Assembly (NCBI GenBank): GCA_003226295.1
Contig: CP029803.1
Coordinates: 736,211 to 800,210 of the forward strand
DNA: 64,000 nucleotides
Reading direction: 5' to 3'
Source of the DNA: Candidatus Moanibacter tarae
GTDB taxonomy: Bacteria > Verrucomicrobiota > Verrucomicrobiia > Opitutales > UBA2987
The notes below the pieces were generated by a model. It saw only the letters and a program-made list of their open reading frames with translations. It was not told the origin of the DNA and did not search any database. A program made the translations under genes and the position numbers. Positions 47,944-62,388 of this stretch are shown one piece after another (positions within the stretch are counted from its first letter, which is position 1; each line of letters begins with the position of its first letter).

Positions 47944-48666
47944 ATGGCGGGCGAAAAATTAAAATTACGGATTAACAACGGGGAGATTATTGAAAGCGTA
48001 TCAGTCCCGAAGAATATTCCCAGAGGGGAACTAGAAGGGATTTTGTCGGAGCGTCACTTTGATTTTCTCTATGTAGACTGTCAACATGATGCCCACAATG
48101 AAGAAAGCTTAGTGGAATTCTGCAAGATGGCGGAAGAGTTATCCATTCCGGTACAGGCTAGAATTAAACATACGCGTGATGCTTATCTCATTGGCACTTA
48201 CCTTGATCTTGGGCCTTCAGGGATCATGGTTCCCGAGGTTAAGGAAGAGATAACAGTTGATGAAGCCCTGGATTCGTTCTACTACCCGCAAAGGGGTAAG
48301 CGTAGTTGGGGAGGTCAAAACAGAATGGGGTTTTCTGAGCGACAGGGTCGCCTCGAGTACTCTAATTGGTGGAATGAAACTGGGTTTCTAACGCTCCAGA
48401 TCGAATCTGTTGAGGCGGTTGTGAATACCCGTTTCCTAGCTAAGGCGGGAGTGGATATTCTCAGTTTTGGCGAAAATGACTTGATGTTTAGTATCGAAGG
48501 AGATCCAGAATTCCCCTTTCGGACTCAGGATGAATGTCTACGCCACGTTCTTAATGAACTCCAGGGGACGAATGTTCGGGTGTCAATGTGCCCCGAGACA
48601 GAGGAAGCAAGAGAAAAATATCTTGAGATGGGAGTGACAATTTTTAATGAGCGAAGGGATCAGTAA
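47944..48666 (+). CDS. HpcH/HpaI-family (class II, 2-keto-3-deoxy-acid) aldolase-like protein
   Basis: FLYVDCQHDAH, GIMVPEV, LQIESVEAV and FGENDL motifs. The ATG at 47944 directly follows the TTG at 47941 used in the ORF track. Confidence 0.75.
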   Translation: MAGEKLKLRINNGEIIESVSVPKNIPRGELEGILSERHFDFLYVDCQHDAHNEESLVEFCKMAEELSIPVQARIKHTRDAYLIGTYLDLGPSGIMVPEVKEEITVDEALDSFYYPQRGKRSWGGQNRMGFSERQGRLEYSNWWNETGFLTLQIESVEAVVNTRFLAKAGVDILSFGENDLMFSIEGDPEFPFRTQDECLRHVLNELQGTNVRVSMCPETEEAREKYLEMGVTIFNERRDQ

Positions 48667-48831
48667 CGGATCACAAAAAAACTTCTCTATTTCTTCGTCA
48701 TCAACATCCTCTTTTACAAGGGATCCTTGAATTTTATACTATTTAGAGAACGGAGGTCAGTCCGGGTTTTCATTAAACTGCTAATCTATTAGTTTTAGAT
48801 ATGGTAAATTGCCTAAGTTTTTTGTTCTCAA

Positions 48832-49830
48832 TTAGAAATTCACCTTCCAGTTAGTTCGTGATGAATTTTTAAGTACCTCGGGATTTACAAGGTTCTTGGG
48901 TGGTTCGCCTCGAAAGACACAGAGGATATTTTGGGCGGCAGCGATGGAGGTCCGTACGAGGGCCTCACTAGTTTGGCCGGCAACGTGAGGAGAACACATG
49001 AGGTTGTCTAGCTTAAGGAGAGAATAATCTTCCGGTACTGGTTCCTGTTCGAAAACATCCAAGGCTGCCCCTCCTATTTTTCGATGATGGAGAGAATAGA
49101 AAAGTGCTTTTTCATCAATGAGGCCACCTCGGGCAGTATTCACAAGGAAGGCCGTGGGTTTCATGAGATCTAATTCAGTTTTTCCAATAAGGTTCCGAGT
49201 TTCAGAGTTAAGGGGAGTGTGCAGCGAGATGAAGTCAGACTTCTGGAGCAATTTTTCAAAAGATACAAGGCTTACATCAACTTCATCAATAGCGCATCTG
49301 TTGGGATAGGGATCATATGCAAGTACTTCCATTCCAAACCCAAGGGCGTGTTTAGCTAGGCGGGATCCGATTCGACCTAGGCCAATGATACCAAGAGTTT
49401 TTTGATAGAGCTCAAACCCTACAATATTATCACGCTTCCAGATGCCGGACTTGACTTCGTTAGCGGCACGGGTGAGGTGACGGGCGAGAGAAATCAATTG
49501 AGCAAAAGCATATTCGCTTACTGCCTCCGAATTAGCGTCGCCGGTAGTGGTAACCGCAATGCCCAGCTTGGTGCACTCGTCGATGGCGACATTGTCGTAA
49601 CCAACGCCATGGCGAGAGACAATCTTGAGTTTTGGAGATGCCGTTAACACCTCTTTATTTATCTGGGTAACACGTGCCAAGATAGCCGCGACATCTTTTG
49701 ATGAGTCGATAACTTTCTCAGGCCTCGAGTATGATTGAAGGACTGTAAGTTCAATCCCGTTGTCTTGAAGAAGATCGAGGCCTTCTGCGCGGACGTTGTG
49801 GTCGGGGACAAGGACTTTGTGTTTAAACAT
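48832..49830 (-). CDS. D-isomer-specific 2-hydroxyacid dehydrogenase (glycerate/phosphoglycerate dehydrogenase-like)
   Basis: GIIGLGRIGSRLA NAD motif and the NTARG / DVFEQEP / SPHVAG Arg-Glu-His catalytic pattern. Confidence 0.9.
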   Translation of the reverse strand: MFKHKVLVPDHNVRAEGLDLLQDNGIELTVLQSYSRPEKVIDSSKDVAAILARVTQINKEVLTASPKLKIVSRHGVGYDNVAIDECTKLGIAVTTTGDANSEAVSEYAFAQLISLARHLTRAANEVKSGIWKRDNIVGFELYQKTLGIIGLGRIGSRLAKHALGFGMEVLAYDPYPNRCAIDEVDVSLVSFEKLLQKSDFISLHTPLNSETRNLIGKTELDLMKPTAFLVNTARGGLIDEKALFYSLHHRKIGGAALDVFEQEPVPEDYSLLKLDNLMCSPHVAGQTSEALVRTSIAAAQNILCVFRGEPPKNLVNPEVLKNSSRTNWKVNF

Positions 49831-49991
49831 CAGTTTTTCTGGGAATCGATATCAAATTTCCTCAGGAACGCGAATTTCGATTGTCCAACTGAAATTAATT
49901 CTCCAGTAATGATAATTGCAACTTATAAGCTATCCCGAAACTTAGTATAATTGTGTGATATAACTATTTAAACACCAACAGGTAAAAAAAT

Positions 49992-51857
49992 ATGAGCCAG
50001 ATTTCATCAAATATTCCAATTACCGATCCGCCGACATGGGCAGTTTGGGAACGACGCCTGTTAAAGGCTATGGATCAGTCGGTTTATCCGTTCCTCGATC
50101 ATTTTACGGGAGATAACGATGAGTTTATATGGAAGGATGAATGGGGCGGGGGTAGTCCCGATGATTTCCTTGAGCCTTTTTTTAACTGGCCTTTGGTTTA
50201 TCTTATGGGTGGAGGGAAGCACCTTTTGGAGCTGTCAAATCACCACTGGGAAACAGAGATAAAGCACCTTACCCGTTTGGGCACCTATCATAAGGAGTAC
50301 GGGTTTAAGGAGGACCAGATGCATCAGGCTGAGGCTGATGTTTGTTTTTATCACCTTTGCTTGGCAAATCCAGCGAGTTTAAAGCATCGCAAACGAGCCC
50401 AGCGCTTTGCCGGGTTTTACCTGAATGAAGACCCGGATGCGATTAACTACGACCCAGTACACAAGATTATTATGTCTGGCCTTAATGGGAGTAAGGGTGC
50501 CTACTCCAATGATCCTAAGGCTCGAGAAGTGCCCTACGCTCCGCCCGCTGGCGGTAGTATGGCGCCCTATGGCTTGCCTTTCTTTGATTTACCTGGGATC
50601 AAAAGCGTTGAGGATCTCCAAGCGGATCCGGAAAAAGGCCGTGCTATGGGAAGGGCCATGTTTGACCGTTGGCGTCAGGGGGATACCGTTGCTAATCTTT
50701 CGATAACCTCAGTTGTAACTAACGCTTTTTTACTTACTGGAGAAGAAAAATATCGTGATTGGGTTGTCGAGTATGTGGATGCTTGGGTAGGGAGGGCGCG
50801 AGAAAATGGTGGCTTAATTCCTGACAATGTCGGTCTCTCCGGAAAAGTAGGAGAGTATACTGGAGGCAAGTGGCACGGCGGGCGTTATGGATGGACATTT
50901 CCCCATGGTTTTTTGACCTTGCAATATGCTGTCCTCGATGCCGCGGCTAATGCCTATCTGCTGACGCGAGACGCAGATTATCTAGAACTTCCACGAACGC
51001 AGATGGATCGGATTTTGGATCTTGGCCGCGAGGAAGAAGGGAGGTTCATGGTTCCGTATCGGTACGGTGATGCCGGATGGTTCGATTGGCATCCGATGGG
51101 TCCAGTCTATATGGCAACTCTTTGGAGTCTGTCAATGGATCAGGGTGATTGGGATCGGATGGAAAGGGTGCGAGCTGCTGATTCTCATGACTGGAACGCA
51201 GTGTCTCCTTTTCATGGTAAAGAGGACGCGGGGCATGAACATCCATGGGTACGGTTTTTGGCGGGAGCAAACTCCGACTATCCGGAACGGATTTTGCATG
51301 CTAGCCATCAGTTGGTTTCCCGTCGGGTGGAACAGAATATAACCGACACCTCAGTGGGCACACAACATCACGTGCATCATTGGCAGTGGGCGAATCCGGT
51401 TTCATCCGAAGCGCTTATCCAACTGACTTTGGGAGGACCGCAGCCTATATACAATGGGGGATTGCTTCACTCGCGTTTAAGGTATTTCGATCCCGTTCGG
51501 CGTCGACCGGGACTGCCGGAGGAAGTGGGAGCTTTGGTTGAAAAACTTGAAGCCGGACGGACTGTGCTAACCCTCGTCAATTTGAGTCCTTGTGAGGACC
51601 AAAAGGTCGTGATTCAAGCGGGTAGTTTTGGGGAACATCGTTTTGGCGAGGCAAAATATCAGACCCGTATAAGCGAATATCCTGGTGATTTAGGAGGATA
51701 CGCTGGACATTATGCTGCGCCTGCTTTGGAGACTGAGGAGAGAAAGGTCATGGTAAATTCGAATCGGTTGGAAGTAGATCTTCCAAGGTGGTCTGAATTG
51801 CGTTTGGACTTGGAGACCGACCGTTATGTTAACGAACCATCTGCCAGTGAACTATAA
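49992..51857 (+). CDS. Hypothetical protein (621 aa), no family recognised
   Basis: Long unopposed ORF rich in Trp/Tyr/His, with no signal peptide. The helical-repeat-like N-terminal two thirds suggest a toroid-type carbohydrate-active fold, which is speculative. Confidence 0.6.
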   Translation: MSQISSNIPITDPPTWAVWERRLLKAMDQSVYPFLDHFTGDNDEFIWKDEWGGGSPDDFLEPFFNWPLVYLMGGGKHLLELSNHHWETEIKHLTRLGTYHKEYGFKEDQMHQAEADVCFYHLCLANPASLKHRKRAQRFAGFYLNEDPDAINYDPVHKIIMSGLNGSKGAYSNDPKAREVPYAPPAGGSMAPYGLPFFDLPGIKSVEDLQADPEKGRAMGRAMFDRWRQGDTVANLSITSVVTNAFLLTGEEKYRDWVVEYVDAWVGRARENGGLIPDNVGLSGKVGEYTGGKWHGGRYGWTFPHGFLTLQYAVLDAAANAYLLTRDADYLELPRTQMDRILDLGREEEGRFMVPYRYGDAGWFDWHPMGPVYMATLWSLSMDQGDWDRMERVRAADSHDWNAVSPFHGKEDAGHEHPWVRFLAGANSDYPERILHASHQLVSRRVEQNITDTSVGTQHHVHHWQWANPVSSEALIQLTLGGPQPIYNGGLLHSRLRYFDPVRRRPGLPEEVGALVEKLEAGRTVLTLVNLSPCEDQKVVIQAGSFGEHRFGEAKYQTRISEYPGDLGGYAGHYAAPALETEERKVMVNSNRLEVDLPRWSELRLDLETDRYVNEPSASEL

Positions 51858-52148
51858 TTCGTTGAGATTTCCTTCCGAGGTAGAAATATGGATAATTGCT
51901 AGCAAATAAAAGCATTGTAGCGAAAAGAAACAGGTACCTGTAGGAGATTAACTAAAATATTTAAGAATAGAACGGAGGATTAGAACGCATGAATTTCCAT
52001 GTGGTTCGCTTAGGCCGTTATCCGATGCAAAAATATTTTCGTTGCTTGGTACAATTCAACTTCAATCATTTGCTACAGGCTGTTAAACTTAGTGTAACGA
52101 TAAGTCTTTGTACTTAGGAAATTTGTTAAAATCTGGAATAGGAAAGTC

Positions 52149-53168
52149 ATGAAACACAAGCCAATCGAAAATCGAAGTTTACGCGTGGGCGTTTACGGAA
52201 CGGGGAACTTTGCCAATCAGCAACATCTTCCAAATTTGAGTAAGCTGGAAAATGTCGATTTAGTAGCAGCCGCTGATATCAATAAAGATGCTCTGAAGTC
52301 GACTGCTGAAAAATTTGGTATCACTCATACTTACGAAGATGCCTACGAGATGCTGGCAAAGGAGGATCTGGATATTCTCTATTCAATTGTTCCCGCATTT
52401 GTCCGAACAGATGTGGAAGCGACTGCTGCGGCCAAAGGCATTCATCTTTTCAGCGAGAAGCCGCAGGCTCTGACAATGGCGGTAGCTCGTCGAATTGCTG
52501 ATGCGGTAGACGAAGGTTCCGTCTTTAGTTCGGTTTGTTTCCGAGAGCGGTATCGTCCCATTTTCATGGAAGCCAAAAGACTATTGGAGGGAAAGAATGT
52601 GATTCATATTCGCTTTCAAAGTTGGAGAGATCTTGTCCCTAAAAAAGAAGAAATGGGTGAGGGTTGGTCCAACAATGTCGATTTGGGTGGGAGTGCAGCT
52701 TTTGACTGGGGTGTGCATGCAGTGGATTATTCACGATACATGAGTGGTCACGATATTGTTCGAGCTCAGGGATTTGTTCACCATCCCAAGGAATTTGCGC
52801 TTCCCTTGTCGAACAGCTACAATTTCGTCCTAGATAGCGGTGCCACTCTTCATGTTAGTTTTGTTTCAGCTGGGGATATGCCTACCCATCAGCCCTATTT
52901 CCTGATTTTCTACGAAGGTGGATATCTTGGGGTTCACGGATACGACTTTATCGAAATGAACGGAGAGAGGGTCTACACAGCAGAGGAATACAATCCATGG
53001 TTCGAACTTGACCGGCGCTTTATTGAAGCGGTTAGGCAGGGTGACGACAGCGATCTTTTGAATGATTACCGGGATGGATTGCTTTCGCTGGGTCCGGTAC
53101 TGGCGGCGTGGGAATCTACCCGCCAAAAGGGTGAGATGATCGATGTAGTTAAATTCATGGAGAACTGA
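52149..53168 (+). CDS. Gfo/Idh/MocA family oxidoreductase
   Basis: LRVGVYGTGNFA Rossmann motif and SEKPQALT motif. Its stop TGA lies 6 nt before the next ATG. Confidence 0.85.
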   Translation: MKHKPIENRSLRVGVYGTGNFANQQHLPNLSKLENVDLVAAADINKDALKSTAEKFGITHTYEDAYEMLAKEDLDILYSIVPAFVRTDVEATAAAKGIHLFSEKPQALTMAVARRIADAVDEGSVFSSVCFRERYRPIFMEAKRLLEGKNVIHIRFQSWRDLVPKKEEMGEGWSNNVDLGGSAAFDWGVHAVDYSRYMSGHDIVRAQGFVHHPKEFALPLSNSYNFVLDSGATLHVSFVSAGDMPTHQPYFLIFYEGGYLGVHGYDFIEMNGERVYTAEEYNPWFELDRRFIEAVRQGDDSDLLNDYRDGLLSLGPVLAAWESTRQKGEMIDVVKFMEN

Positions 53169-53174
53169 CCAAAG

Positions 53175-54017
53175 ATGAATAAACTCGAACTTACACCACA
53201 ACAACTATCCTTCATCGATGTTTTTGGATATTTGAAGTTTTCCGGTCTGCTTCTAGATCGAATTGATGAGATTATAGAAGCATTTGAGAGGGTTTGGGAA
53301 GAACGCGGTGGTGGCCATAATGGAAAGATCCACGATGGTACCGCGCGCTCGTGTATCGTGCCATTCATTGACCAAAGCGAATATCTCTCTTCGTTGCTGG
53401 ATGATCCACGAGTTAATGGAATCTTTTCTAGCCTCCTGGGAGAGGATTTTCAATATCTCGGTAGCGATGGAAACTACTACGTAGGGAATACCAGATGGCA
53501 TTCCGACGGCACTTGGCCGCGTCCCATTATCTACTACAAGATGGCGCTTTATCTTGATTTTCTCAATGGTGATTCTGGAGCACTTAGCGTGGTTCCTGGG
53601 AGTCATCGATATGGGGAAAACTACGCAGAGGAACTGGAACGGCAAATTCGCAAGCCTGAAGAGTTTTGGGGTATGGGTGGTGATGAAGTTCCGGCGATGG
53701 CTTTAGAGACAGTTCCGGGTGATGTAGTGATTTTTAATCAAGGAACTAAACACAGCTCGTGGGGAGGTGGAGACCGACGTAGGATGTTTACGATAAACTG
53801 CACTCTGCGTCATACAGATGAGCAAATACCATTGCTACGCCAAGAAGTGAGCGGATCCGCTCGATTTCTTGTGGATTCAGTCTATGGGGAAGCAATGCTT
53901 CAAAGCGCCGATTCGGCTCGTATGCGTCACCTGGAGCAAGGGTTGGCGAACCAAGATCACCTACCCGAGCTTGTACGAAGGGAAAGAGAGCAGCGTGACG
54001 AACCATCACGGGGCTAG
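53175..54017 (+). CDS. PhyH family Fe(II)/2-oxoglutarate dioxygenase
   Basis: FIDVFGYLKF N-terminal motif, RWHSDG (HxD) and GTKHSSWGG (distal His). Apparently co-transcribed with 52149..53168. Confidence 0.8.
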   Translation: MNKLELTPQQLSFIDVFGYLKFSGLLLDRIDEIIEAFERVWEERGGGHNGKIHDGTARSCIVPFIDQSEYLSSLLDDPRVNGIFSSLLGEDFQYLGSDGNYYVGNTRWHSDGTWPRPIIYYKMALYLDFLNGDSGALSVVPGSHRYGENYAEELERQIRKPEEFWGMGGDEVPAMALETVPGDVVIFNQGTKHSSWGGGDRRRMFTINCTLRHTDEQIPLLRQEVSGSARFLVDSVYGEAMLQSADSARMRHLEQGLANQDHLPELVRREREQRDEPSRG

Positions 54018-54018
54018 T

Positions 54019-54038
54019 GTATTTCTTCTGAGAAATAC
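54019..54038. terminator. AT-rich hairpin (8-bp stem GTATTTCT/AGAAATAC, 4-nt loop) between convergent genes
   Basis: Lies 2 nt after the 53175..54017 stop and 59 nt after the 54097..55242 stop. Possible bidirectional terminator. Confidence 0.3.
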
Positions 54039-54096
54039 GGGTTCTTCAATACAAAATACAGTATCCCTATCTTATTCCACTTAGAATCCCTTAGGC

Positions 54097-55242
54097 TTAG
54101 ACCTCTTCTACAATAAGGGAGGCGAACTTTTCCTCGTCCCACTGCGCTCCCCACCCAGGAAGATTATTGGGAGCAATGTGGCCGTCCTTGATGATGGGGG
54201 CGTTGGTGAGACCCCAGAGAGCCCCTTGTTCCCGCAAGGCATCGGGGGATAGTGCCATGTATTCATAGAATTGAGTGTTTTCAATGCAGCATCCGAGCGT
54301 GGCGTGAACAAGGCCGGACAGACCTCCAACGCCATTGAGTTCGATTGTGCCACCATACAATTCGGCAAGATGGGCAAGCTTTAGGACATGGGTTGTTCCA
54401 GCTCTGGCGTTTCCTCGAAGAAGGTCAGTCCCACCCTGAATGAGCCATTGGGAAGTTATTCCGATATCGTTCATAAGCATCTCGGTACCCATCACCGGGA
54501 TGGTCAGTTCATCGCACAATTCCTGATAGAGATTGAGTTTGTACTCGTGCATGGGTTCCTCGAGCCAAACGAAATCCAAGTCTTCCATTACATGACCAAC
54601 CTCGATTGCTTCCCTTAGGTCGTAGGAGCAAACCGGATCGTTTAATAGATCGTAATCAGCACCAACAATTTCCCTCACCTTGGTGAAAATTGGGATATCT
54701 GCCTTGCCGCCTTTGTAAGTGTGGAATTTGTAGGCGTTTATTCCAAATGATTTCCCAATATCAATATGTTCCAGATATTGTTCTAGAGTAGAATCACCGG
54801 CAGTGAGATAGACCGGAAGACTCTCTCGAACTCTTCCCACCAAAGCGTGGACAGGAAGGTTAGCTGCTTTCCCAAGGATATCCCACAGGCAATTATCAAA
54901 AGCTCCGAACCATCCTGGCGGTTGGTAAACCCATCGCGTTCCTTTGTGCAACTTTTGCCAGATTGCCTCACGGTTAAAGACGTCCTCACCGATTACCTGA
55001 TTTTTGATTATGGACAATTGTGTTGGTGTTATTGAAATGTCTGTGGTGACGATGCTCTCGATTCCCTCGTCAGTGATGACTTTGAGGAAAGTGTTTCGGG
55101 TCTTAACAGTGCCTGATTGCTTCGCGCGCCCGTGGGTGTACTGGATGCGTCTTAGGTTGGGGATAGTAGTTAACTTCCACTCTCTAGCCGGGTGTTCATC
55201 GTCAAGTTCTAAGGTGATCAGTTTGATATCTGCTATCTTCAT
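54097..55242 (-). CDS. Enolase-superfamily enzyme (MR/MLE family), tandem copy A
   Basis: 381 aa. Motifs GWFGAFDNCLWDILGK, YKFH, LLNDPV, WLEEPM, MGTEM and GGTDLLRGNA. Identical to copy B except residues 2 and 19-21. Confidence 0.85.
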   Translation of the reverse strand: MKIADIKLITLELDDEHPAREWKLTTIPNLRRIQYTHGRAKQSGTVKTRNTFLKVITDEGIESIVTTDISITPTQLSIIKNQVIGEDVFNREAIWQKLHKGTRWVYQPPGWFGAFDNCLWDILGKAANLPVHALVGRVRESLPVYLTAGDSTLEQYLEHIDIGKSFGINAYKFHTYKGGKADIPIFTKVREIVGADYDLLNDPVCSYDLREAIEVGHVMEDLDFVWLEEPMHEYKLNLYQELCDELTIPVMGTEMLMNDIGITSQWLIQGGTDLLRGNARAGTTHVLKLAHLAELYGGTIELNGVGGLSGLVHATLGCCIENTQFYEYMALSPDALREQGALWGLTNAPIIKDGHIAPNNLPGWGAQWDEEKFASLIVEEV

Positions 55243-55297
55243 TTTATAACTTTTTGTAAGCTTCTTATTTCAGGGAGCGTCAATGAATCCCTTAGGC

Positions 55298-56443
55298 TTA
55301 GACCTCTTCTACAATAAGGGAGGCGAACTTTTCCTCGTCCCACTGCGCTCCCCACCCAGGAAGATTATTGGGAGCAATGTGGCCGTCCTTGATGATGGGG
55401 GCGTTGGTGAGACCCCAGAGAGCCCCTTGTTCCCGCAAGGCATCGGGGGATAGTGCCATGTATTCATAGAATTGAGTGTTTTCAATGCAGCATCCGAGCG
55501 TGGCGTGAACAAGGCCGGACAGACCTCCAACGCCATTGAGTTCGATTGTGCCACCATACAATTCGGCAAGATGGGCAAGCTTTAGGACATGGGTTGTTCC
55601 AGCTCTGGCGTTTCCTCGAAGAAGGTCAGTCCCACCCTGAATGAGCCATTGGGAAGTTATTCCGATATCGTTCATAAGCATCTCGGTACCCATCACCGGG
55701 ATGGTCAGTTCATCGCACAATTCCTGATAGAGATTGAGTTTGTACTCGTGCATGGGTTCCTCGAGCCAAACGAAATCCAAGTCTTCCATTACATGACCAA
55801 CCTCGATTGCTTCCCTTAGGTCGTAGGAGCAAACCGGATCGTTTAATAGATCGTAATCAGCACCAACAATTTCCCTCACCTTGGTGAAAATTGGGATATC
55901 TGCCTTGCCGCCTTTGTAAGTGTGGAATTTGTAGGCGTTTATTCCAAATGATTTCCCAATATCAATATGTTCCAGATATTGTTCTAGAGTAGAATCACCG
56001 GCAGTGAGATAGACCGGAAGACTCTCTCGAACTCTTCCCACCAAAGCGTGGACAGGAAGGTTAGCTGCTTTCCCAAGGATATCCCACAGGCAATTATCAA
56101 AAGCTCCGAACCATCCTGGCGGTTGGTAAACCCATCGCGTTCCTTTGTGCAACTTTTGCCAGATTGCCTCACGGTTAAAGACGTCCTCACCGATTACCTG
56201 ATTTTTGATTATGGACAATTGTGTTGGTGTTATTGAAATGTCTGTGGTGACGATGCTCTCGATTCCCTCGTCAGTGATGACTTTGAGGAAAGTGTTTCGG
56301 GTCTTAACAGTGCCTGATTGCTTCGCGCGCCCGTGGGTGTACTGGATGCGTCTTAGGTTGGGGATAGTAGTTAACTTCCACTGACTAACTGGGTGTTCAT
56401 CGTCAAGTTCTAAGGTGATCAGTTTGATATCTGCTATCCTCAT
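55298..56443 (-). CDS. Enolase-superfamily enzyme (MR/MLE family), tandem copy B
   Basis: Same motifs as copy A. Differs by K2R and A19V/R20S/E21Q. Confidence 0.85.
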   Translation of the reverse strand: MRIADIKLITLELDDEHPVSQWKLTTIPNLRRIQYTHGRAKQSGTVKTRNTFLKVITDEGIESIVTTDISITPTQLSIIKNQVIGEDVFNREAIWQKLHKGTRWVYQPPGWFGAFDNCLWDILGKAANLPVHALVGRVRESLPVYLTAGDSTLEQYLEHIDIGKSFGINAYKFHTYKGGKADIPIFTKVREIVGADYDLLNDPVCSYDLREAIEVGHVMEDLDFVWLEEPMHEYKLNLYQELCDELTIPVMGTEMLMNDIGITSQWLIQGGTDLLRGNARAGTTHVLKLAHLAELYGGTIELNGVGGLSGLVHATLGCCIENTQFYEYMALSPDALREQGALWGLTNAPIIKDGHIAPNNLPGWGAQWDEEKFASLIVEEV

Positions 56444-56685
56444 TTTATAACCTTTTGTAAGCTTCTTATTTCAGGGAACGTCAATTATTGCAGTCTGGAA
56501 CAGTTTGAAATTGCAATAGAAAACTTTGAAAATAGAAATTAAGAAGGAGCTTTTGCTTAAGGATAGTTTTGGTTTCAAGCCCTCTATTTCTTAATAACGA
56601 CCATTAGTTAGAAATTTAAAGACGTGGGAGATGGCCCCGTGTAGAAAAAGAACCAGGTGAAGACCAAGAATAATCATTTACAGTA

Positions 56686-57723
56686 CTAGTCGCAGTTAAC
56701 TTCGGTTTTGGGTGATAAAATCTCGTCACCGTAAGCAAAAAGAGCAGGGGTCCCCCCTGTATGCACAAACACCACTGTTTGATCCTTGGTCCAACGCTTT
56801 TGTCTTATGTGTTCGATCATGGCTCCAAAAGCTTTACCGGTGTAGACGGGATCTAGGAGCAGTCCTTCCGTTCGTGCCATTAAAAGAACAGCGTCTCGGC
56901 CCCGTTCTGTTACGGTCCCATAGGCTTCGCCAGCGTAGTTTCCATGGCACTCAAAATCAGCCGGATTAATTTGCAGCGAAAGATCAAGCATGAGAGCAAC
57001 CTTTTTAGCCACACAGGCTAGTTCCCTGCTGGATTCTTCATTTTCTCGTGGCATTGGCTTAATTCCGATGACTTCTACTGGAATCCCAAGCGCGCGAGCT
57101 CCAATTACAAGGCCGACATGGGTATGGACTCCAGAACAGACATACAATGCGGCAGGATGAATGTCTTGGTCCTGGAGTTGCTTTGACAACTCCAGGAAAC
57201 CATCCACATAGGCGATGCTCCGTAAAAGATAGCCGTCAGTGCTAGTGTTGTAAACACGATGTCCTTCTTTCCTCAGGCGGTTAATGATCTCAATTTTTTC
57301 TCCAGGATTATCGGTAAGGTAAATGTCGGCGCCAAATATATGAGACAGAAGAAGGTTCCCGGTAATGGGTTCAGAATGATCGTCGCGTTGTCCAACCATG
57401 ACAGCTTTTTTCCCCAAGCGAGCCGCTACCGCTGCGGTGACGCGTGATTGATTAGATTGGGATGCTGCACCATGAAGAAGGATATCATAATTCCCTTCGA
57501 CGGCAGGGGCTAGGGAGTATTCAAACTCACGAATTTTATTCCCACCAAATGCAATGCCGGTTTGATCTTCACGCTTGATGAGAATGCGAGGGCCATCCAG
57601 TTCTTTAGACAATCTCGGGCAGTCGAACAAAGGGGTGGGAAGATCAGCCAATGAGAGACGACTGAAACTGTCGAGCCGAGATTTAAGATCTTTTCTTGTG
57701 ATGGAATTCTTTTGGTTAAACAC
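56686..57723 (-). CDS. PLP-dependent enzyme of the ACC deaminase / D-cysteine desulfhydrase family
   Basis: GTG start. DLPTPL, and the KREDQTGIAFGGNKIREFEY motif carrying the PLP lysine (GGNK). 345 aa. Confidence 0.85.
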   Translation of the reverse strand: MFNQKNSITRKDLKSRLDSFSRLSLADLPTPLFDCPRLSKELDGPRILIKREDQTGIAFGGNKIREFEYSLAPAVEGNYDILLHGAASQSNQSRVTAAVAARLGKKAVMVGQRDDHSEPITGNLLLSHIFGADIYLTDNPGEKIEIINRLRKEGHRVYNTSTDGYLLRSIAYVDGFLELSKQLQDQDIHPAALYVCSGVHTHVGLVIGARALGIPVEVIGIKPMPRENEESSRELACVAKKVALMLDLSLQINPADFECHGNYAGEAYGTVTERGRDAVLLMARTEGLLLDPVYTGKAFGAMIEHIRQKRWTKDQTVVFVHTGGTPALFAYGDEILSPKTEVNCD

Positions 57724-57740
57724 AGACTATACTAACGTCG

Positions 57741-57776
57741 CGGCTGAGGCGGGCTGTCAAGCGTCGCCTCCAGCCG
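57741..57776 (-). terminator. GC-rich stem-loop (11 bp with one bulged C, 13-nt loop), 18 nt upstream of the PLP-enzyme start codon
   Basis: CGGCTGAGGCG pairs with CGCCTCCAGCCG. It could be a relic terminator or a 5'-leader structure. No U-tract. Confidence 0.3.
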
Positions 57777-57795
57777 ACTTGTTCGGCGTAGATGT

Positions 57796-57828
57796 TCCAT
57801 CCATTGCTTAGGGCCCCCATTGGATGGA
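57796..57828 (-). terminator. Stem-loop (8-bp stem TCCATCCA/TGGATGGA, 17-nt loop) directly after the putative remnant stop
   Basis: Read directly from the sequence. No U-tract follows. Confidence 0.3.
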
Positions 57829-58056
57829 CTATTCCTGTAGAGCCCCCAGAAATCGCTCAGAATAGGCTGTCTCTCGTATGAGCTGATCGTGAACGTTATG
57901 CCCAGCTTGGTATCCTAGTTGAGGAATCGCAATTGGTCTAGACGGATCTGGCCAGTAACCAAAAGAATTATAGGGAGTTTCACTTTGTTATTGTATACAT
58001 TCACCAGCAGGGATGGAAGATTGAAGGTCCGCTTCATCTGCAAATGATATTCCAGA
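57829..58056 (-). pseudogene. Possible decayed 3' fragment of a gene (no start codon, one in-frame TAA at 57988..57990)
   Basis: The minus-strand frame reads SGISFADEADLQSSIPAGECIQ*QSETPYNSFGYWPDPSRPIAIPQLGYQAGHNVHDQLIRETAYSERFLGALQE*. GC content is clearly higher than in neighbouring spacers. The ending G-x-x-x-G-H-N-x-x-D weakly resembles the C-terminus of M20/ArgE-type hydrolases. Confidence 0.25.
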
Positions 58057-58336
58057 CTAAAGAAAACTTATGATAGGAATTTTAATTTATAGGGCTATTC
58101 GAAATATTCTGAACGGAAGGATCTTTATCGTTAAATAGGTAAGGTTGTATGGATTAGCCTTTAATGTTCATATCCTTTCCGGATAGATATAATAGTTCTT
58201 GGTGCTTTAGAATTAAAACCTCCTATCTAAGTTTGTTCTGAAGTGATTCGGTTCCGACCTGAAACGATTGATTGCAGTTGGATTGCATTGAATAGCTACT
58301 TAGGTAGAACCAAATTTTACTGGAAACGATATAAGG

Positions 58337-59701
58337 ATGGAAATAGTTAACAAAGTTGAATGGAACGCTGTTCGAGAGGAAGTAACAAATCATCTCCAGG
58401 AACTGATTCGAATCGATACAACCAATCCACCTGGTAATGAGATTCGCTGTGCTGATTACATCGCAGGTGTTTTACAGAGCGAAGGAATTGAATACAAAGT
58501 AACCGAGTCAACGCCGGGGCGCGGAAATGTCACAGCACGCCTAGAAGGAGGCTGTAAGGCCCCCCTTATGCTCTTAGGTCATACAGACGTAGTTGCAGCC
58601 GAATCAGAGAAGTGGACTCATCCTCCATTCAGTGGTGAGCTAGTGGAGGGGGTTGTGTGGGGCCGAGGGGCTTTGGACATGAAGAATATGGTGGCAGCTG
58701 AATTAATGGTTTTTCTGCTCTTTAGAAGACTGGGGTTGTCTCTGAATCGTGACCTGATATATGCGGCAACCGCGGATGAAGAGGCTGGCAAAGGCAATCA
58801 TGGGATCGGTTGGTTGCTGGATAATTTCCCAGATCAGGTTGAAGCCCCATATGTGCTGACCGAAGGTGGTGGAAATGAGAGGAGAATTGGAAACACAAGT
58901 TTCTTCACAATACAAACGGGCCAGAAAGGAATTTGTCGTTTCCGATTGCATGCTAGAGGTCGTCCAGGGCATGGATCTGTGCCTCATCGTGATAATGCAG
59001 TAGTAAAGCTTTCAAGAGTTGTAGCGGCATTGGGGCAAACGATATTACCGATACATCCATCTCCAACGCTAAAGGCCTATATCGAAGGGATTGCTGAGCA
59101 TCAAAATGTGGAAGCAGCAGAGCGATTGAGAGCAATTTTGGATTCTGAGAAGAGTGAAAAGGCTTTATCTCAAGCGCCACTTCCAGAAACCGAGATCGCA
59201 TCATTAAATTCTCTCTTAAGAAACACAGTTTCTCCCACTATTATTGCAGCTGGAACCAAGATTAATGTGATCCCTGGCGACGCTGTAGCTTGGGTCGATG
59301 GCCGATTGGCTCCTGGACAGACAGAGGAAAGCTTTTTTGAAGAAATCTATCCTTTTCTGGGGAAAGATGTATTTGTAGAGGTAGACCAGTACTCTCCGCC
59401 CATTGAGGCGGAAATAGGCTCTGCTTTATACGAGACAATAGTATCAGTTATGGGCGAACATGTTCCAGAAGCGCGGATTATTCCCTCCATTATGACAGGA
59501 GGAACCGATGCGAAGCACATTATTCCCCGAAAGCCTGAAACGCAAGTACTCGGATTTATGCCATTACGCGAAATGTCGGGTAAAGATGAAGAAGCGAATC
59601 TAATTCATGGCCATAACGAACGTATTTCGGTGGAGAATCTCTTGTTTGCGACGAAGGTGCTATTTGATGTAGTTAAAAGCTTTTGCGGGGTAGCAAAATG
59701 A
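58337..59701 (+). CDS. M20/M25/M40 family metallohydrolase (peptidase or deacylase)
   Basis: LLGHTDVV, GRGALDMK, TADEEAG and HGHNERI motifs. Confidence 0.85.
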   Translation: MEIVNKVEWNAVREEVTNHLQELIRIDTTNPPGNEIRCADYIAGVLQSEGIEYKVTESTPGRGNVTARLEGGCKAPLMLLGHTDVVAAESEKWTHPPFSGELVEGVVWGRGALDMKNMVAAELMVFLLFRRLGLSLNRDLIYAATADEEAGKGNHGIGWLLDNFPDQVEAPYVLTEGGGNERRIGNTSFFTIQTGQKGICRFRLHARGRPGHGSVPHRDNAVVKLSRVVAALGQTILPIHPSPTLKAYIEGIAEHQNVEAAERLRAILDSEKSEKALSQAPLPETEIASLNSLLRNTVSPTIIAAGTKINVIPGDAVAWVDGRLAPGQTEESFFEEIYPFLGKDVFVEVDQYSPPIEAEIGSALYETIVSVMGEHVPEARIIPSIMTGGTDAKHIIPRKPETQVLGFMPLREMSGKDEEANLIHGHNERISVENLLFATKVLFDVVKSFCGVAK

Positions 59702-59884
59702 AATTTAGTTTTTATAAAGTTCAATTAGGAAAAGGAAACTACTGCGAACGGTGAAGCATAAAGAAAGTGCTACCCTCTAAATTAGAGTGATCATGAATTT
59801 CTTTCATTGTCATTGTTATCCATTCGAATTCGTGAAATTCTAGCGTGCCATACGGAGTAACGATTTTAATATAAAGGTATCACC

Positions 59885-60844
59885 ATGTCCACTCAACCAG
59901 GAAACAAAATCCAACAAAAACTAATTCGCGGTGCCGTCCCAGTTCTTTGTATGCCGTTCGAGGCTAATGGCGCTGTTGATGTTGATAGTTTACTCAGGGA
60001 GATTGATTTTTGTGTCGAGGCAGGTTCACAGGCGATTGCTTTTGGAAAGGGCAGTGAAAGCCCCGAGCTTACGGATCACGAGAGGAAGACGGTTTGGACT
60101 GCAGCATCGCGGCATCTTAATGGGCAACTGCCTCTGGTAGTGGCAACTGCGCATCCTAGTCATGAAGGAGTAATTGCTTTGACTCAATTAGCACTAGATT
60201 GCGGCGCTGATTGTGCTATGGTTGACCCGGATCAAAAAAAAGGAGAAGAGTTAATACGACTATTTCGGGAACTGGCGAGTAGGGTTGATCTTTCCATCAT
60301 GCTACAGGATGCAGGAGGAAATGCTCCGGTTCCGATCATGCTTCAGGCGGTTCGAGAGTCGCCAACCATAAATTGCATGAAGATCGAATGTCCGGGTACT
60401 CCCAATAAAATGGCTGAAGTAATCAACAGCCTTCGTGAGATCAAGATGAGTGACGGAGTAGGACGAACTGTGGATATCTTAGGAGGTGGAAACGGGAATC
60501 TATTGCTGGAAGAGTTAGATCGGGGATCGGTTGGAACATTACCTTATCCTGCCTTGATCGATGCATTTCGATCCGTTTGCGATCTTTATTCCTCGGGGAA
60601 TACCGGTGGGGCATGGGAATGCTATTTACAACAGATTCTTCCACTTAGTCGACTGGTGGCCTCTGGGGGTCCCATGGGAGGTGATATATGGATGCACAAG
60701 ACCATATTTGAGCGAGCTGGAATTCTCCGTACGAACGTATGTAGGAGAGAATCTCAGCCGCAACCAGCCTGGGTTGTGGAAAAAGTATGGGCACATTTGA
60801 AAGTCTCAGATCTCCTAATTAGTAAACTTTTGGCGGGCAAATAG
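59885..60844 (+). CDS. Dihydrodipicolinate synthase / N-acetylneuraminate lyase family class I aldolase-like protein
   Basis: GKGSESPELTDHER aligns with the GTTGES-x-LS-x-EE motif, and INCMKIE aligns with the Schiff-base Lys motif (I-x-G-I-K-E/D). 319 aa. Confidence 0.75.
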   Translation: MSTQPGNKIQQKLIRGAVPVLCMPFEANGAVDVDSLLREIDFCVEAGSQAIAFGKGSESPELTDHERKTVWTAASRHLNGQLPLVVATAHPSHEGVIALTQLALDCGADCAMVDPDQKKGEELIRLFRELASRVDLSIMLQDAGGNAPVPIMLQAVRESPTINCMKIECPGTPNKMAEVINSLREIKMSDGVGRTVDILGGGNGNLLLEELDRGSVGTLPYPALIDAFRSVCDLYSSGNTGGAWECYLQQILPLSRLVASGGPMGGDIWMHKTIFERAGILRTNVCRRESQPQPAWVVEKVWAHLKVSDLLISKLLAGK

Positions 60845-60942
60845 GCTTGTATAGCTTTGCCTGCCTTTTGGTACGCATCATCAAGATTCTCGGAATCACC
60901 ACTCAAAGCTAACAATGTTTCTGTAAGCCGGGCTTCTTAGGG

Positions 60943-62388
60943 CTACTTTAGGAGATCGACAAATTCTTCCCGCCCCCGTCTAAACAGATCTTTTACATCC
61001 TCACGCTGGCTATCGTTGCTGTAACGGCCATAGGAATCGATCCACTTGAGCGATTCGTCGATTCCACGAAGGAAATAATTTGCTGATTCATTTCGCTCTT
61101 CTGGTGGCTTGCCACAAACGAAATAGACGGGGCTACTATGAGCGTAGATGGACTGGTCAAAACTGTCCCGACTATCACCCCATAGCCTGGCTGCGATCCA
61201 CCCATCGCTGTCACTGGAGACATTATGACGTAGAATGCCTTTACGTTTACCTAAGGGATGGCTTTCACTGTGGATAACGGTACCGTTTTTAATGACCTCT
61301 ATTCGGTGCACGGGATAAAATGAATTATAGGTCACTGCAACTTCAAGTTGTCTGTTTTTGGCCAAGTCAATGGTAGTGCCCATCGGTTGATTATTTACTG
61401 CCAGATCGATGGCTGGACCATTGGTAATGAAGGTGTTGCCCGATTTCATGCCGCCGATCCAGTTTGCGTAAGAGAATTCTTCTTTCGTATTAACGTACAC
61501 ACGATTGTTGGAACAGACGAACCAGTCTGTTCCGGTAGATGCAGGAAGGGAGATGCCGCAATTGAGAAGTTTGTACCAGAGATCGTATTCCGGATCTAGC
61601 CAGAATGGATCAAAGAGGTTGAAGGCATCAAGTTTGCCCAGGACCGCAGCGATCGGAGCTTCCATGCCCCTCCCGTTATGACACCAGATGACGATTCCCC
61701 CTTGATCACGGGCTTCATCGCAGCAAAAGCATAATGGAGGATAATCAGGATCGAATTGTGAAGTGAGGATGTGCCCGCGGCTCACAGGTTGCACAATATT
61801 TCTTAGGTTAAGAAACATTACATGGCCGTAACCGAATCCCCAAGGTGAGTGGTCTCCGTAGTGTCGGTTCTCTTCCCCAATATCCAGCACATGGTGGGCT
61901 GTGGTGAACTCGTTCATGACACCGATTGGATATTTATTGCTTGCATATGGGAGTTGGCGACGGTCGAGGACGCTTACCACTGTGACATTATAACCCTCTA
62001 CGCTGCAGTCTACGGCCAGACGGTCGTCAGGCCGAGTCTCTTTTTCGTCGTAGTGGATGTGTGTATTGCCTGGGTACCAATTCCCTTCTTGGGGATGATG
62101 CCATCGCGTCAGAGATATTTCGACATCTTTACTTCCTTTTTCTGGCACCTCCACGATCAGACGAGATGGTTCATATTCCGTCCCTCTTTCGACCAGAATA
62201 TCAGTACGCCCCCGGGGAGTATTAACTTCAAACTCTCCGTCACAAAAGAAGAACTCAGTACCTGGGCCACGCTTGAGAAGGGCATCTTCTGGTTTGCAGA
62301 AAATTCCGGTGGAGGAGAGAACATGGACCTTCGCGTTTATTCTCTGGTTGGTCGTCGAATCGATTATTGTGCCGTGTAAAAGTCCCAT
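60943..62388 (-). CDS. CehA/McbA-type (PHP-like) metallohydrolase with an N-terminal carboxypeptidase-regulatory-like domain
   Basis: The N-terminal GTIIDSTTNQRINAKVHV beta-sandwich-like segment is followed by the GNTHIHYDE metal motif, then CHNGRG and GTDW clusters. Confidence 0.7.
   Translation of the reverse strand: MGLLHGTIIDSTTNQRINAKVHVLSSTGIFCKPEDALLKRGPGTEFFFCDGEFEVNTPRGRTDILVERGTEYEPSRLIVEVPEKGSKDVEISLTRWHHPQEGNWYPGNTHIHYDEKETRPDDRLAVDCSVEGYNVTVVSVLDRRQLPYASNKYPIGVMNEFTTAHHVLDIGEENRHYGDHSPWGFGYGHVMFLNLRNIVQPVSRGHILTSQFDPDYPPLCFCCDEARDQGGIVIWCHNGRGMEAPIAAVLGKLDAFNLFDPFWLDPEYDLWYKLLNCGISLPASTGTDWFVCSNNRVYVNTKEEFSYANWIGGMKSGNTFITNGPAIDLAVNNQPMGTTIDLAKNRQLEVAVTYNSFYPVHRIEVIKNGTVIHSESHPLGKRKGILRHNVSSDSDGWIAARLWGDSRDSFDQSIYAHSSPVYFVCGKPPEERNESANYFLRGIDESLKWIDSYGRYSNDSQREDVKDLFRRGREEFVDLLK

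What the first reader, a model, noticed from the sequence alone, without database searches (positions are those of the whole stretch)
54084..56485. Near-perfect 1201-bp tandem duplication of a complete enolase-superfamily gene, with every difference confined to the 5' ~100 bp
Units 54084..55284 and 55285..56485 align at a constant offset of 1201 nt, with exactly two units and a clean junction. I found only 7 differences, all between 55182 and 55277 in unit-1 coordinates. Four fall within 8 bp: codon 18 changes synonymously and A19-R20-E21 becomes V19-S20-Q21. One more changes K2 to R, and two lie in the 42-nt 5' flank that each unit carries. The remaining ~1100 bp look identical. I spot-checked them line by line, and the ORF-track translations in several frames are identical between the units. 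There is no transposase and there are no terminal inverted repeats. A more distant paralog of the same sub-clade sits at 3..1082. The pattern fits a very recent gene amplification, such as dosage selection on one catabolic step. It also fits ongoing gene conversion whose tract stops about 100 bp short of the 5' end. The 4-in-8-bp cluster looks like a single multi-nucleotide or micro-conversion event rather than independent point mutations.
Basis: seen in the sequence. Interest (0 to 1): 0.6.

Follow-up and report, generated by a model that had tools for sequence, protein, structure and literature searches.

The report
Tandem enolase-family gene pair, partly assembler-homogenised
A marine verrucomicrobium ("Candidatus Moanabacter tarae") really does carry two head-to-tail copies of an uncharacterised sugar-acid-type enzyme gene, but the duplication is old rather than recent, its copies are kept alike by recombination, and the "almost perfect identity with all differences at one end" seen here is probably exaggerated by the short-read assembler.

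Summary
Units 54084..55284 and 55285..56485 differ at 7 positions, all within 103 nt of the units' 5' (gene-sense) edge.

The duplication is real. The same blunt join GGGATTC|ATTGACG occurs in 9 assemblies from several samples and assemblers.

It is not very recent. A lineage with 1.1-2.4% flank divergence has identical breakpoints, and a sister species (neighbours 76-84% aa identity) has one copy in the same synteny. Between the two lineages, 43 unit columns follow a "copies agree within a genome, genomes differ" pattern and none follow an orthologous pattern. This indicates homogenisation by gene conversion or unequal crossover. One allele also carries a 47-nt tract copied from a 61%-identical paralog (22/23 sites, P~5e-10).

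The near-perfect identity is assembly-dependent. The published genome, with the same two proteins, is a metaSPAdes assembly of Illumina run ERR599156. A MEGAHIT assembly of that same run, and a UBA MAG, have 100% identical flanks but give the downstream copy an extra 12-bp insertion and 5 substitutions. Other assemblies add 4 more variant sites. Every difference missing from the window lies in a closed de Bruijn bubble. The 7 retained differences lie in an open fork.

The "4-in-8-bp single event" reading fails, because the changes split between both copies. This is an ordinary kind of feature, and the case is mainly cautionary.

The parts
55285..56485 (-). Unit 2, the upstream copy in the direction of transcription. 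It comprises 42 nt of 5' leader, the CDS and 13 nt of 3' tail.
   Evidence: Aligns with unit 1 at offset 1201. It is 100% identical in the UBA MAG L003.
54084..55284 (-). Unit 1, the downstream copy, with the same 42 + 1146 + 13 nt layout.
   Evidence: Other assemblies of the same clone disagree with the interior of this unit.
55298..56443 (-). CDS of the upstream copy, 381 aa with R2 and V19-S20-Q21 (= AWT59523.1).
54097..55242 (-). CDS of the downstream copy, 381 aa with K2 and A19-R20-E21 (= AWT59522.1).
55275..55294 (.). Join point 55284|55285. In gene sense it reads ...TAAGGGATTC|ATTGACGC.... It is blunt, with no microhomology.
   Evidence: The identical join is found in L003, L076, L077, L078, L079, L080, L167 and L172.
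55182..55277 (-). 5' edge of unit 1 holding all 7 differences (the counterpart in unit 2 is 56383..56478). This corresponds to unit positions 8-103.
   Evidence: For k >= 55 this stretch shares no k-mer with the other copy, so it forms an open fork.
54245..54329 (-). Block E (unit positions 956-1040). In MEGAHIT (L076) and UBA (L003) assemblies of the same clone, the downstream copy has 5 substitutions and a 12-bp insertion here: V305A, S309F, and MALSP changed to MGWLTTQSG.
55039..55054 (-). Block C (unit positions 231, 236, 246). The alternative allele (V65A, D68E) appears in L080 and in the Tara consortium allele P0004.
54755..54755 (-). Block D (unit position 530). The alternative allele G163A appears in L080 and P0004.
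56486..56685 (-). Unique 200-nt intergenic region between the PLP-dependent enzyme gene and the upstream copy. It is the presumed promoter region for the pair. The downstream copy has only a 55-nt spacer.
   Evidence: No sigma-70-like site was found on the minus strand, so the promoter assignment is inference only.
15..1082 (+). Distant paralog, 40% aa identity. It is one of about 9 enolase-superfamily genes in the window.

Best explanation
**What it is.** This is a real tandem duplication of an uncharacterised enolase-superfamily (mandelate-racemase subgroup) gene in "Candidatus Moanabacter tarae".

**Origin.** It arose once, by a blunt non-homologous join. That happened after the split from the single-copy sister species and before the present M. 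tarae lineages diverged. Copy number may be polymorphic in natural populations.

**Maintenance.** RecA-type recombination between the copies (gene conversion and/or unequal crossover) keeps most of the 1.2-kb unit alike. Sites close to the ends of the homology escape, because a conversion tract needs homology on both sides. Recombination also imports short patches from distant paralogs.

**Why the window looks as it does.** The window's "7 differences, all within 103 nt of the 5' edge" is a lower bound produced partly by consensus assembly. Differences that sit between stretches shared by both copies form closed de Bruijn bubbles, and metaSPAdes-type assemblers collapse those. Differences next to the unit boundary form open forks and are always kept. 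The true downstream copy of this clone probably carries up to 9 further substitutions and a 12-bp in-frame insertion, or the array has more than two copies.

**Shown versus inferred.** Shown: the duplication, the shared breakpoints, the single-copy outgroup, the disagreement between assemblers, the bubble/fork geometry and the paralog-derived tract. Inferred: the recombination mechanism, the edge effect, the assembler's behaviour on this locus, co-transcription of the pair, and any selective reason.
For: 1. **The join is real.** It is present in 9 assemblies: JGI, UBA/NCBI, two MEGAHIT Tara assemblies, ENA scaffolds labelled LUOE20-1 and MIZU16-1, and Logan. Logan contigs of exactly one unit (1201 and 1210 nt) behave as a repeat node.
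2. **The breakpoints are shared.** The join and both outer boundaries are identical base for base in L078. Its flanks differ from the window by 1.14% upstream and 2.39% downstream.
3. **The outgroup is single-copy.** Sister species L082 has the same M20-PALP-X-PhyH-GFO-DUF8034 synteny with one copy and no room for a second. Orthologs at 59-69% identity are also single-copy.
4. **The copies evolve in concert.** The two L078 units are 100% identical to each other but differ from the window units at 47-48 columns. Across the four units, 43 columns are concerted and 0 are orthologous. The interior between-lineage rate of 1.17% matches the flank rate.
5. **Assemblers disagree on one clone.** CP029803 encodes exactly the window's two proteins. 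It was built with metaSPAdes (k 21-77) from Illumina run ERR599156 (PMC6256433). The MEGAHIT contig from ERR599156 (L076) has a 385-aa downstream copy. UBA MAG L003 shows the same variant joined to the downstream flank, and it has the window-type upstream copy. The flanks are 100% identical over 4-11.5 kb. Tara's own assembly of that sample gives yet another mosaic (P0004).
6. **The geometry fits.** With all variant blocks placed in one copy, the first 103 nt share no k-mer between copies for k >= 55. [quoted passage not shown]
7. **Recombination acts at this locus.** Alleles are mosaics. Allele iii carries a tract matching paralog L112 at 39/44 nt against a 62.7% background. At 22 of 23 substitutions versus its sibling allele it has the paralog's base (P = 5e-10).
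Against: - All assemblies are short-read. No reads or depth were available, so neither the copy number nor the phase of blocks C-E is established.
- The L078 pair's 100% identity could itself be an assembler product.
- Five of the 13 non-patch "concerted" sites (231, 236, 246, 956, 968) have the other lineage's state as an alternative allele within the Tara clone. They may be unhomogenised paralogous differences, which weakens the concerted signal.
- Six contigs run flank-unit-flank with one copy and no gap. Part of the population may therefore be single-copy, and horizontal spread of the join point cannot be excluded.
- The assembler used for the JGI contig is not known to me.
- The variant patches could belong to rare conversion variants in the population rather than to the dominant genome.
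Confidence: 0.6

Rival explanations
1. The window is correct as assembled. The dominant clone has two copies that differ only at the 7 edge sites, because conversion has homogenised everything else. The extra variants in other assemblies come from minority cells carrying different conversion tracts or ectopic patches.
For: - Two assemblies, JGI and CP029803, encode the same protein pair.
- L080, from another sample, has a downstream copy without the insertion.
- The locus demonstrably recombines.
- metaSPAdes uses read pairs and strain paths to resolve repeats.
Against: - The flanks show no polymorphism over 4-11.5 kb, so a second strain differing only inside the unit would be unusual.
- Two assemblers with other algorithms, MEGAHIT and the UBA pipeline, both attach the insertion variant to the downstream flank.
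- All differences missing from the window are exactly the collapsible ones.
Confidence: 0.25
2. A very recent duplication followed by a few point mutations or one multinucleotide event.
For: The copies are 99.4% identical in the window. Tandem duplications are frequent and unstable (general knowledge).
Against: - Identical breakpoints occur in a lineage with 1.1-2.4% flank divergence and 47-48 unit differences.
- The 5' differences include states shared with that lineage and with the sister species, so they are split over both copies.
- Seven random mutations would cluster this tightly with P about 1e-6.
Confidence: 0.05
3. The array has three or more copies, or copy number varies from cell to cell as an amplification. 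The different unit haplotypes recovered from one sample are then different array members that two-copy assemblies cannot represent.
For: - At least four unit haplotypes come from the same station-125 sample: h1 and h2 in CP029803, P0014 and P0004. A two-copy clone can hold only two.
- The UBA scaffold has a gap inside the array.
- Logan contig L079 is a closed loop of one unit plus 30 nt.
Against: Each variable block has only two states, which two copies plus chimeric threading also explain. There are no depth data.
Confidence: 0.1
4. The duplication itself is an assembly artefact, and the chromosome has a single copy.
For: Six gap-free contigs show flank-one unit-flank. All the data are short reads.
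Against: The join sequence cannot be assembled from a single-copy locus. It recurs in 9 assemblies from at least 5 pipelines and several samples, each time linked to the correct flank and to copy-specific edge variants.
Confidence: 0.03

Closest known systems
Concerted evolution of duplicated bacterial genes by gene conversion, for example tufA/tufB in Salmonella and E. coli and rRNA operons (Abdulkarim & Hughes 1996; Santoyo & Romero 2005; cited from my own knowledge)
   Same: Paralogs within a genome are more alike than orthologs between lineages. Alleles are mosaic. Homogenisation by RecA-type recombination is inferred.
   Different: Here the copies are directly tandem, so unequal crossover and copy loss are also possible. 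The evidence comes from metagenome assemblies rather than isolates. Homogenisation appears incomplete and its extent is uncertain.
Tandem duplication-amplification under dosage selection (the Roth/Andersson model; Reams & Roth 2015; cited from my own knowledge)
   Same: A head-to-tail duplication of a catabolic-type gene with a novel join point. There is apparent copy-number polymorphism, with both single-unit and two-unit contigs.
   Different: Laboratory duplications are usually large (10-1000 kb), form between repeats and are lost quickly. This one is exactly one gene, has a blunt join, and has persisted through about 1-2% sequence divergence. No selection was tested.
Collapse or consensus of near-identical repeats by de Bruijn metagenome assemblers (metaSPAdes bulge projection, PMC5411777)
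   Same: Differences enclosed by shared k-mers vanish from the contig. Different assemblers give different copies from the same reads.
   Different: Usually the result is a collapsed single copy or a broken contig. Here the contig keeps two copies and only the interior variants appear to have been flattened.
MR-subgroup acid-sugar dehydratases and cycloisomerases of the enolase superfamily. The closest solved structures are A. tumefaciens 1rvk/4hch, at 24-26% identity.
   Same: Two-domain fold with TM about 0.8. MR_MLE_N and MR_MLE_C domains are present. Acidic residues D202, E228 and E254 are invariant at the 26-residue spacing typical of the metal ligands (the ligand assignment is inferred).
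   Different: No NCBIfam equivalog threshold is approached (ManD 94 bits against 550). There is a long N-terminal beta-hairpin, and the substrate is unknown. The database label "D-mannonate dehydratase" is not supported.

Membership tests
Tandem gene duplication (real, chromosomal) | Two head-to-tail copies separated by a novel join sequence that is absent from the single-copy state | tested here: met
   Searches show the structure. The join was found in 9 assemblies. The sister species lacks it.
Tandem gene duplication (real, chromosomal) | Reads or molecules spanning flank-unit-join-unit-flank, and about 2x read depth over the unit | not testable with these tools
   No reads or coverage data were available, and all assemblies are short-read.
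Concerted evolution / gene conversion between paralogs | The duplication predates the lineage split: same breakpoints in diverged lineages and a single-copy outgroup | tested here: met
Concerted evolution / gene conversion between paralogs | Paralogs within a genome are more similar than orthologous copies between genomes | tested here: inconclusive
   There are 43 concerted columns and 0 orthologous columns, and the L078 copies are identical. However, assemblers may have flattened real differences. Five of the 13 non-patch sites have alternative alleles within the Tara clone.
Concerted evolution / gene conversion between paralogs | Mosaic tracts with identifiable donors | tested here: met
   Allele iii carries a tract from paralog L112, with 22/23 sites matching (P = 5e-10). 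Alleles P0015 and P0006 are mosaics.
Assembly-homogenised repeat (consensus artefact) | Different assemblers give different copy sequences from the same reads or the same clone | tested here: met
   ERR599156 gives AWT59522 (381 aa) with metaSPAdes and P0014 (385 aa) with MEGAHIT. The flanks are 100% identical.
Assembly-homogenised repeat (consensus artefact) | Retained differences lie only where the graph cannot form a closed bubble | tested here: met
   The k-mer simulation shows that unit positions 1-103 share no k-mer for k >= 55, while blocks C, D and E are enclosed by shared stretches.
Assembly-homogenised repeat (consensus artefact) | Read-level allele ratios near 1:1 at the flattened sites | not testable with these tools
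   No reads were available.
Enolase superfamily, mandelate-racemase subgroup | N-terminal capping domain plus C-terminal barrel domain | tested here: met
   Pfam MR_MLE_N scores 29.7 bits and MR_MLE_C 98.4 bits. The AF2 model has pLDDT 94. Foldseek gives TM 0.79-0.81 to 1rvk and 4hch.
Enolase superfamily, mandelate-racemase subgroup | Three conserved carboxylate metal ligands on consecutive barrel strands | tested here: met
   D202, E228 and E254 are invariant in 48 homologs and lie at strand ends in the model. Their role as ligands is inferred from spacing and was not measured.
D-mannonate dehydratase ManD (the database annotation) | Score at or above the NCBIfam equivalog threshold (NF043051, 550 bits) | tested here: not met
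   The score is 94.1 bits. The closest PDB relatives are not ManD.
Transposon- or IS-mediated duplication | Transposase gene, terminal inverted repeats, or target-site duplication at the boundaries | tested here: not met
   There are no inverted repeats at the boundaries. The neighbouring genes are metabolic. The join is blunt.

The most novel reading that the evidence does not exclude
The pair is maintained as two isoforms of one enzyme. Most of the gene is homogenised, while two hypervariable, indel-tolerant surface elements are diversified. These are the tip of the N-terminal hairpin (residues 19-21) and the loop directly after beta-strand 8 and invariant E327 (residues 329-333). Part of that diversification would come from short ectopic conversion tracts copied from distant enolase-superfamily paralogs. 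This would amount to natural loop-swapping that tunes substrate range in a genome rich in such paralogs (about 9 in this 64-kb window).
Probability: 0.1. Interest if true: 0.65.

Novelty: new member of a known kind. Interest (0 to 1): 0.3.

Why it matters
Biologically, this is one more example of a tandem gene pair shaped by recombination, in an uncultured marine verrucomicrobium.

Practically, it is a clean worked example of a trap. A striking pattern of "all differences at one edge of a repeat" in a short-read metagenome contig can be produced by bubble collapsing. Duplication age and gene-conversion tracts should therefore not be read off such contigs without reads or long-read data.

It also shows that the deposited annotation "D-mannonate dehydratase" for AWT59522 and AWT59523 is unsupported. 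In addition, the deposited sequence of AWT59522 may be a consensus rather than a real allele.

Tried and rejected
- **Metagenome scan.** The metagenome-contig scan with the protein returned no near-identical contigs, only orthologs at <=69% identity. These were useful solely for copy number and polarity.
- **First polarity call, revised.** I first used the 69% ortholog L004 (PAREF) and called A-R-E ancestral. The 86% sister species reads PVSEW, which reversed that call.
- **L077 as a single-copy haplotype, rejected.** A 100-N scaffold gap hides the upstream copy, and the join is present.
- **Donor searches.** I looked for a donor of the 12-bp insertion patch (ii) in the window and in all fetched loci and found none. 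The A19/R20 changes are too few to test for a donor.
- **P0004 look-up.** There was no record, so its position as an upstream copy rests on the Tara gene coordinates quoted.
- **Regulatory and RNA scans.** The promoter/terminator scan found nothing inside the units on the gene strand. The Rfam gathering-threshold scan of 48000..62000 gave no hits.
- **"20s specificity loop" idea, rejected.** The model puts residues 19-21 near the tip of a variable beta-hairpin. The conserved segment is 27-35.
- **Literature search for 1rvk function.** It returned nothing usable. My recollection that 1rvk is a galactarolactone cycloisomerase is therefore not used as evidence.
Full report
**1. Observation**

Window 54084..55284 and 55285..56485 align at a constant offset of 1201 nt with exactly seven mismatches: 55182, 55183, 55187, 55189, 55238, 55251 and 55277. 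Similarity ends abruptly outside both units. It is the only long direct repeat in the 64-kb window, and there are no inverted repeats at its ends.

Each unit holds a 381-aa ORF on the minus strand (54097..55242 downstream, 55298..56443 upstream), preceded by 42 nt and followed by 13 nt. The proteins differ at K2R and A19V/R20S/E21Q. The join ...GGGATTC|ATTGACG... (gene sense) is blunt, with no microhomology between the breakpoints. Seven random sites would cluster this tightly with P about 1e-6.

**2. Source and gene identity**

The window is part of JGI metagenome contig Ga0211585_10000001, which is 1.6 Mb long. The two proteins are exactly AWT59522.1 and AWT59523.1 of "Candidatus Moanabacter tarae" (Verrucomicrobia, class Opitutae), both annotated "D-mannonate dehydratase".

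- Pfam finds MR_MLE_N and MR_MLE_C.
- No NCBIfam equivalog is approached. The best is ManD at 94 bits against a cut-off of 550.
- The closest solved structures are A. tumefaciens 1rvk and 4hch, at 24-26% identity.
- An AlphaFold model built on 48 homologs is confident (pLDDT 94.3) and has the enolase-superfamily fold (TM about 0.8).
- D202, E228 and E254 are invariant.

The gene therefore belongs to a widespread but uncharacterised mandelate-racemase-subgroup family, with 778 relatives at E <= 1e-40 and no informative names.

The neighbours are a PLP-dependent D-cysteine-desulfhydrase/cysteate-sulfo-lyase-like enzyme, an M20 peptidase, a DHDPS-like protein, PhyH, a GFO/IDH/MocA oxidoreductase and DUF8034. 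The window holds about nine enolase-superfamily paralogs.

**3. Is the duplication real?**

Yes, with high confidence. The join sequence occurs in nine assemblies made by different pipelines from several samples:

- the JGI contig;
- the UBA MAG DEAH01000002 (L003);
- MEGAHIT assemblies of ERR599156 (L076) and ERR594323 (L080);
- ENA scaffolds L077, L078, L167 and L172;
- a Logan contig (L079).

In each case the join is linked to the expected flank and to copy-specific edge variants.

Logan contigs of exactly one unit (L171, 1201 nt; L163, 1210 nt) are what a repeated node in a de Bruijn graph looks like.

Six contigs run flank-one unit-flank without gaps (L161, L164-L166, L168, L170). At least three are MEGAHIT k141 contigs, which carry no scaffolding. 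So copy number may be polymorphic, or identical copies were collapsed. I cannot tell which without reads.

**4. How old is it?**

- In L078 (a 729-kb scaffold from another project) the join and both outer boundaries are identical base for base to the window. Its flanks differ by 1.14% over 4 kb upstream and 2.39% over 2.8 kb downstream.
- A sister species, "Ca. Moanabacter sp." (L082, on a 3.2-Mb contig), has neighbours at 76-84% aa identity and the same M20-PALP-X-PhyH-GFO-DUF8034 order. It has one copy at 86% identity and only about 340-nt spacers, so there is no room for a second.
- More distant orthologs at 59-69% identity are single-copy.

With a blunt join, recurrent origin at identical breakpoints is very unlikely. 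The duplication therefore arose once, after the sister-species split and before M. tarae lineages diverged. "Very recent" is not supported.

**5. Homogenisation**

The two L078 units are 100% identical to each other, yet they differ from the window units at 47-48 columns. Across the four units, 43 columns (34 substitutions and 9 indel columns) show the pattern "copies agree within a genome, genomes differ". None show the orthologous pattern of upstream matching upstream and downstream matching downstream. The interior between-lineage rate of 1.17% equals the flank rate. This is the signature of concerted evolution by gene conversion or unequal crossover.

Recombination at the locus is independently evident.

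- The 16 members of the 90% cluster are mosaics. They combine N-terminal states (K2/R2 with ARE, ASE, VSE or VSQ), interior states, and four different versions of a loop after residue 328.
- The 384-aa allele carries a 47-nt tract matching a 61%-identical paralog from another contig of the same MAG (L112). The match is 39/44 nt against a 62.7% background.
- At 22 of the 23 substitutions separating that allele from its sibling, it has the paralog's base (P = 5e-10).
- The sister species has the sibling-type loop, so the tract is a derived ectopic conversion.

**6. The near-perfect identity is assembly-dependent**

CP029803 encodes exactly the window's protein pair. It was assembled with metaSPAdes 3.7 (k 21-77) from Illumina run ERR599156, from Tara station 125 (PMC6256433).

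| Assembly | What it shows for the unit |
|---|---|
| L076, MEGAHIT assembly of the same run | Downstream copy has a 12-bp in-frame insertion and five substitutions, 161-245 nt from the unit's 3' boundary (385-aa P0014) |
| UBA MAG L003 | The same variant joined to the downstream flank, plus an upstream copy 100% identical to the window's and an NN gap in between |
| L080, from run ERR594323 | A downstream copy with four other substitutions at unit positions 231, 236, 246 and 530 |
| Tara consortium assembly of station 125 (P0004) | An upstream copy combining R2 with ARE and the L080-type interior |

Outside the repeat, all of these assemblies are 100% identical to the window over 4-11.5 kb. 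They therefore sample one clone. A two-copy clone cannot hold four or five unit haplotypes, so some assemblies are chimeric or consensus, or the array is longer than two.

Each variable block has two states. I built a model genome with all alternative states placed in the downstream copy. For k >= 55, unit positions 1-103 share no k-mer between the copies, so they form an open fork that any assembler must keep. Blocks C, D and E are enclosed by shared stretches, so they form closed bubbles. metaSPAdes states that it masks most strain differences and collapses larger bulges than SPAdes (PMC5411777).

The window's pattern, with every retained difference in the 5' 103 nt, is thus exactly what bubble collapsing would leave. 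This step is an inference about assembler behaviour, and I do not know which assembler JGI used.

At five of the 13 non-patch "concerted" sites, the alternative allele within the Tara clone equals the other lineage's state. Homogenisation is therefore probably real but less complete than the contigs suggest.

**7. The 4-in-8-bp cluster**

The sister species and the second lineage read CCR GTT AGY GAG (P-V-S-E). The changes therefore divide as follows:

- the downstream copy gained A19 and R20;
- the upstream copy gained Q21 (and R2);
- the synonymous CCA is shared with the second lineage and is older.

An A-S-E allele also exists (P0013). The cluster is several events on both copies, not a single event.

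Residues 19-21 lie near the tip of a long N-terminal beta-hairpin, at the 87th-98th percentile of family variability and next to an indel site. The conserved segment is 27-35. The other hot patch (residues 329-333) is the loop after beta-strand 8 and invariant E327, and it is also hypervariable and an indel hotspot.

Variation is therefore tolerated, or possibly selected, in these loops. The data do not distinguish relaxed constraint from diversifying selection. Outside the loop patch there are 9 nonsynonymous and 2 synonymous variable sites in the Tara clone (my count from the data, not computed by a tool), a ratio too small to test for selection.

**8. Mechanism proposed**

1. A single illegitimate join duplicated one gene with 42 nt of leader and 13 nt of tail.
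2. The downstream copy sits 55 nt behind the upstream one with no terminator-like site between them, so it is presumably co-transcribed. This is inferred.
3. Recombination between the copies erases or spreads interior mutations.
4. Sites near the ends of the homology escape, because little homology is left on one side. This rests on the known minimal-homology requirement of bacterial recombination and is an inference.
5. Copy loss by unequal crossover would explain the single-unit contigs, and selection for dosage might maintain the pair. Neither point was tested.

**9. Verdict**

The feature is real and of a well-known kind. The headline "near-perfect, all differences in the 5' 100 bp" is probably in large part an assembly product. 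Interest is modest. The main value is as a caution, plus a possible lead on paralog-to-paralog loop exchange in enolase-superfamily enzymes.

Noticed in passing
window 15..1082, 4346..5590, 5934..7094, 15041..16129, 38552..39730, 43981..45126, 45378..46511: Seven further enolase-superfamily paralogs (19-40% identity to the duplicated gene) lie in the same 64 kb. This is an unusually dense set of MR/MLE-type genes among catabolic-looking neighbours.
   Followed up: partly
L078 4986..5065 and 6196..6275; L161 3724..3803; donor L112 about 2243..2271: The 384-aa allele of the second lineage carries a 47-nt tract copied from a 61%-identical paralog on another contig of the same MAG. At 22 of 23 substitutions it has the paralog's base (P about 5e-10), which indicates an ectopic micro-conversion into the loop after beta-strand 8.
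   Followed up: yes
window 51858..52148: The DUF8034-GFO intergenic region is 291 nt here but 47 nt in the L078 lineage, an indel of about 245 nt between lineages. Gene callers place a 42-aa ORF in it. There was no Rfam hit.
   Followed up: partly
L079 (Logan SRR5002404, 1240 nt), L163 (1210 nt), L171 (1201 nt): These are contigs of exactly one repeat unit, or of one unit plus 30 nt closing on itself. The closed loop could mean more than two copies, or circular units, in that sample.
   Followed up: no
L161 3972..4814 (MAG CAZIUG010000008.1): The PhyH-family neighbour is split into two ORFs (158 and 121 aa) in this MAG but is intact (280 aa) elsewhere. This is either a frameshift or an assembly error.
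   Followed up: no
window 56686..57723 (- strand): The gene upstream of the pair is a PLP-dependent enzyme. Its best matches are D-cysteate sulfo-lyase (239 bits) and D-cysteine desulfhydrase models, all below their cut-offs. Together with the M20 peptidase and the DHDPS-like and HpcH aldolase genes, it suggests an uncharacterised catabolic island.
   Followed up: partly
window 54097..55242 and 55298..56443: The public annotation "D-mannonate dehydratase" (AWT59522 and AWT59523) is not supported, since the NCBIfam ManD score is 94 bits against a cut-off of 550. AWT59522 may be a consensus sequence rather than a real allele.
   Followed up: yes
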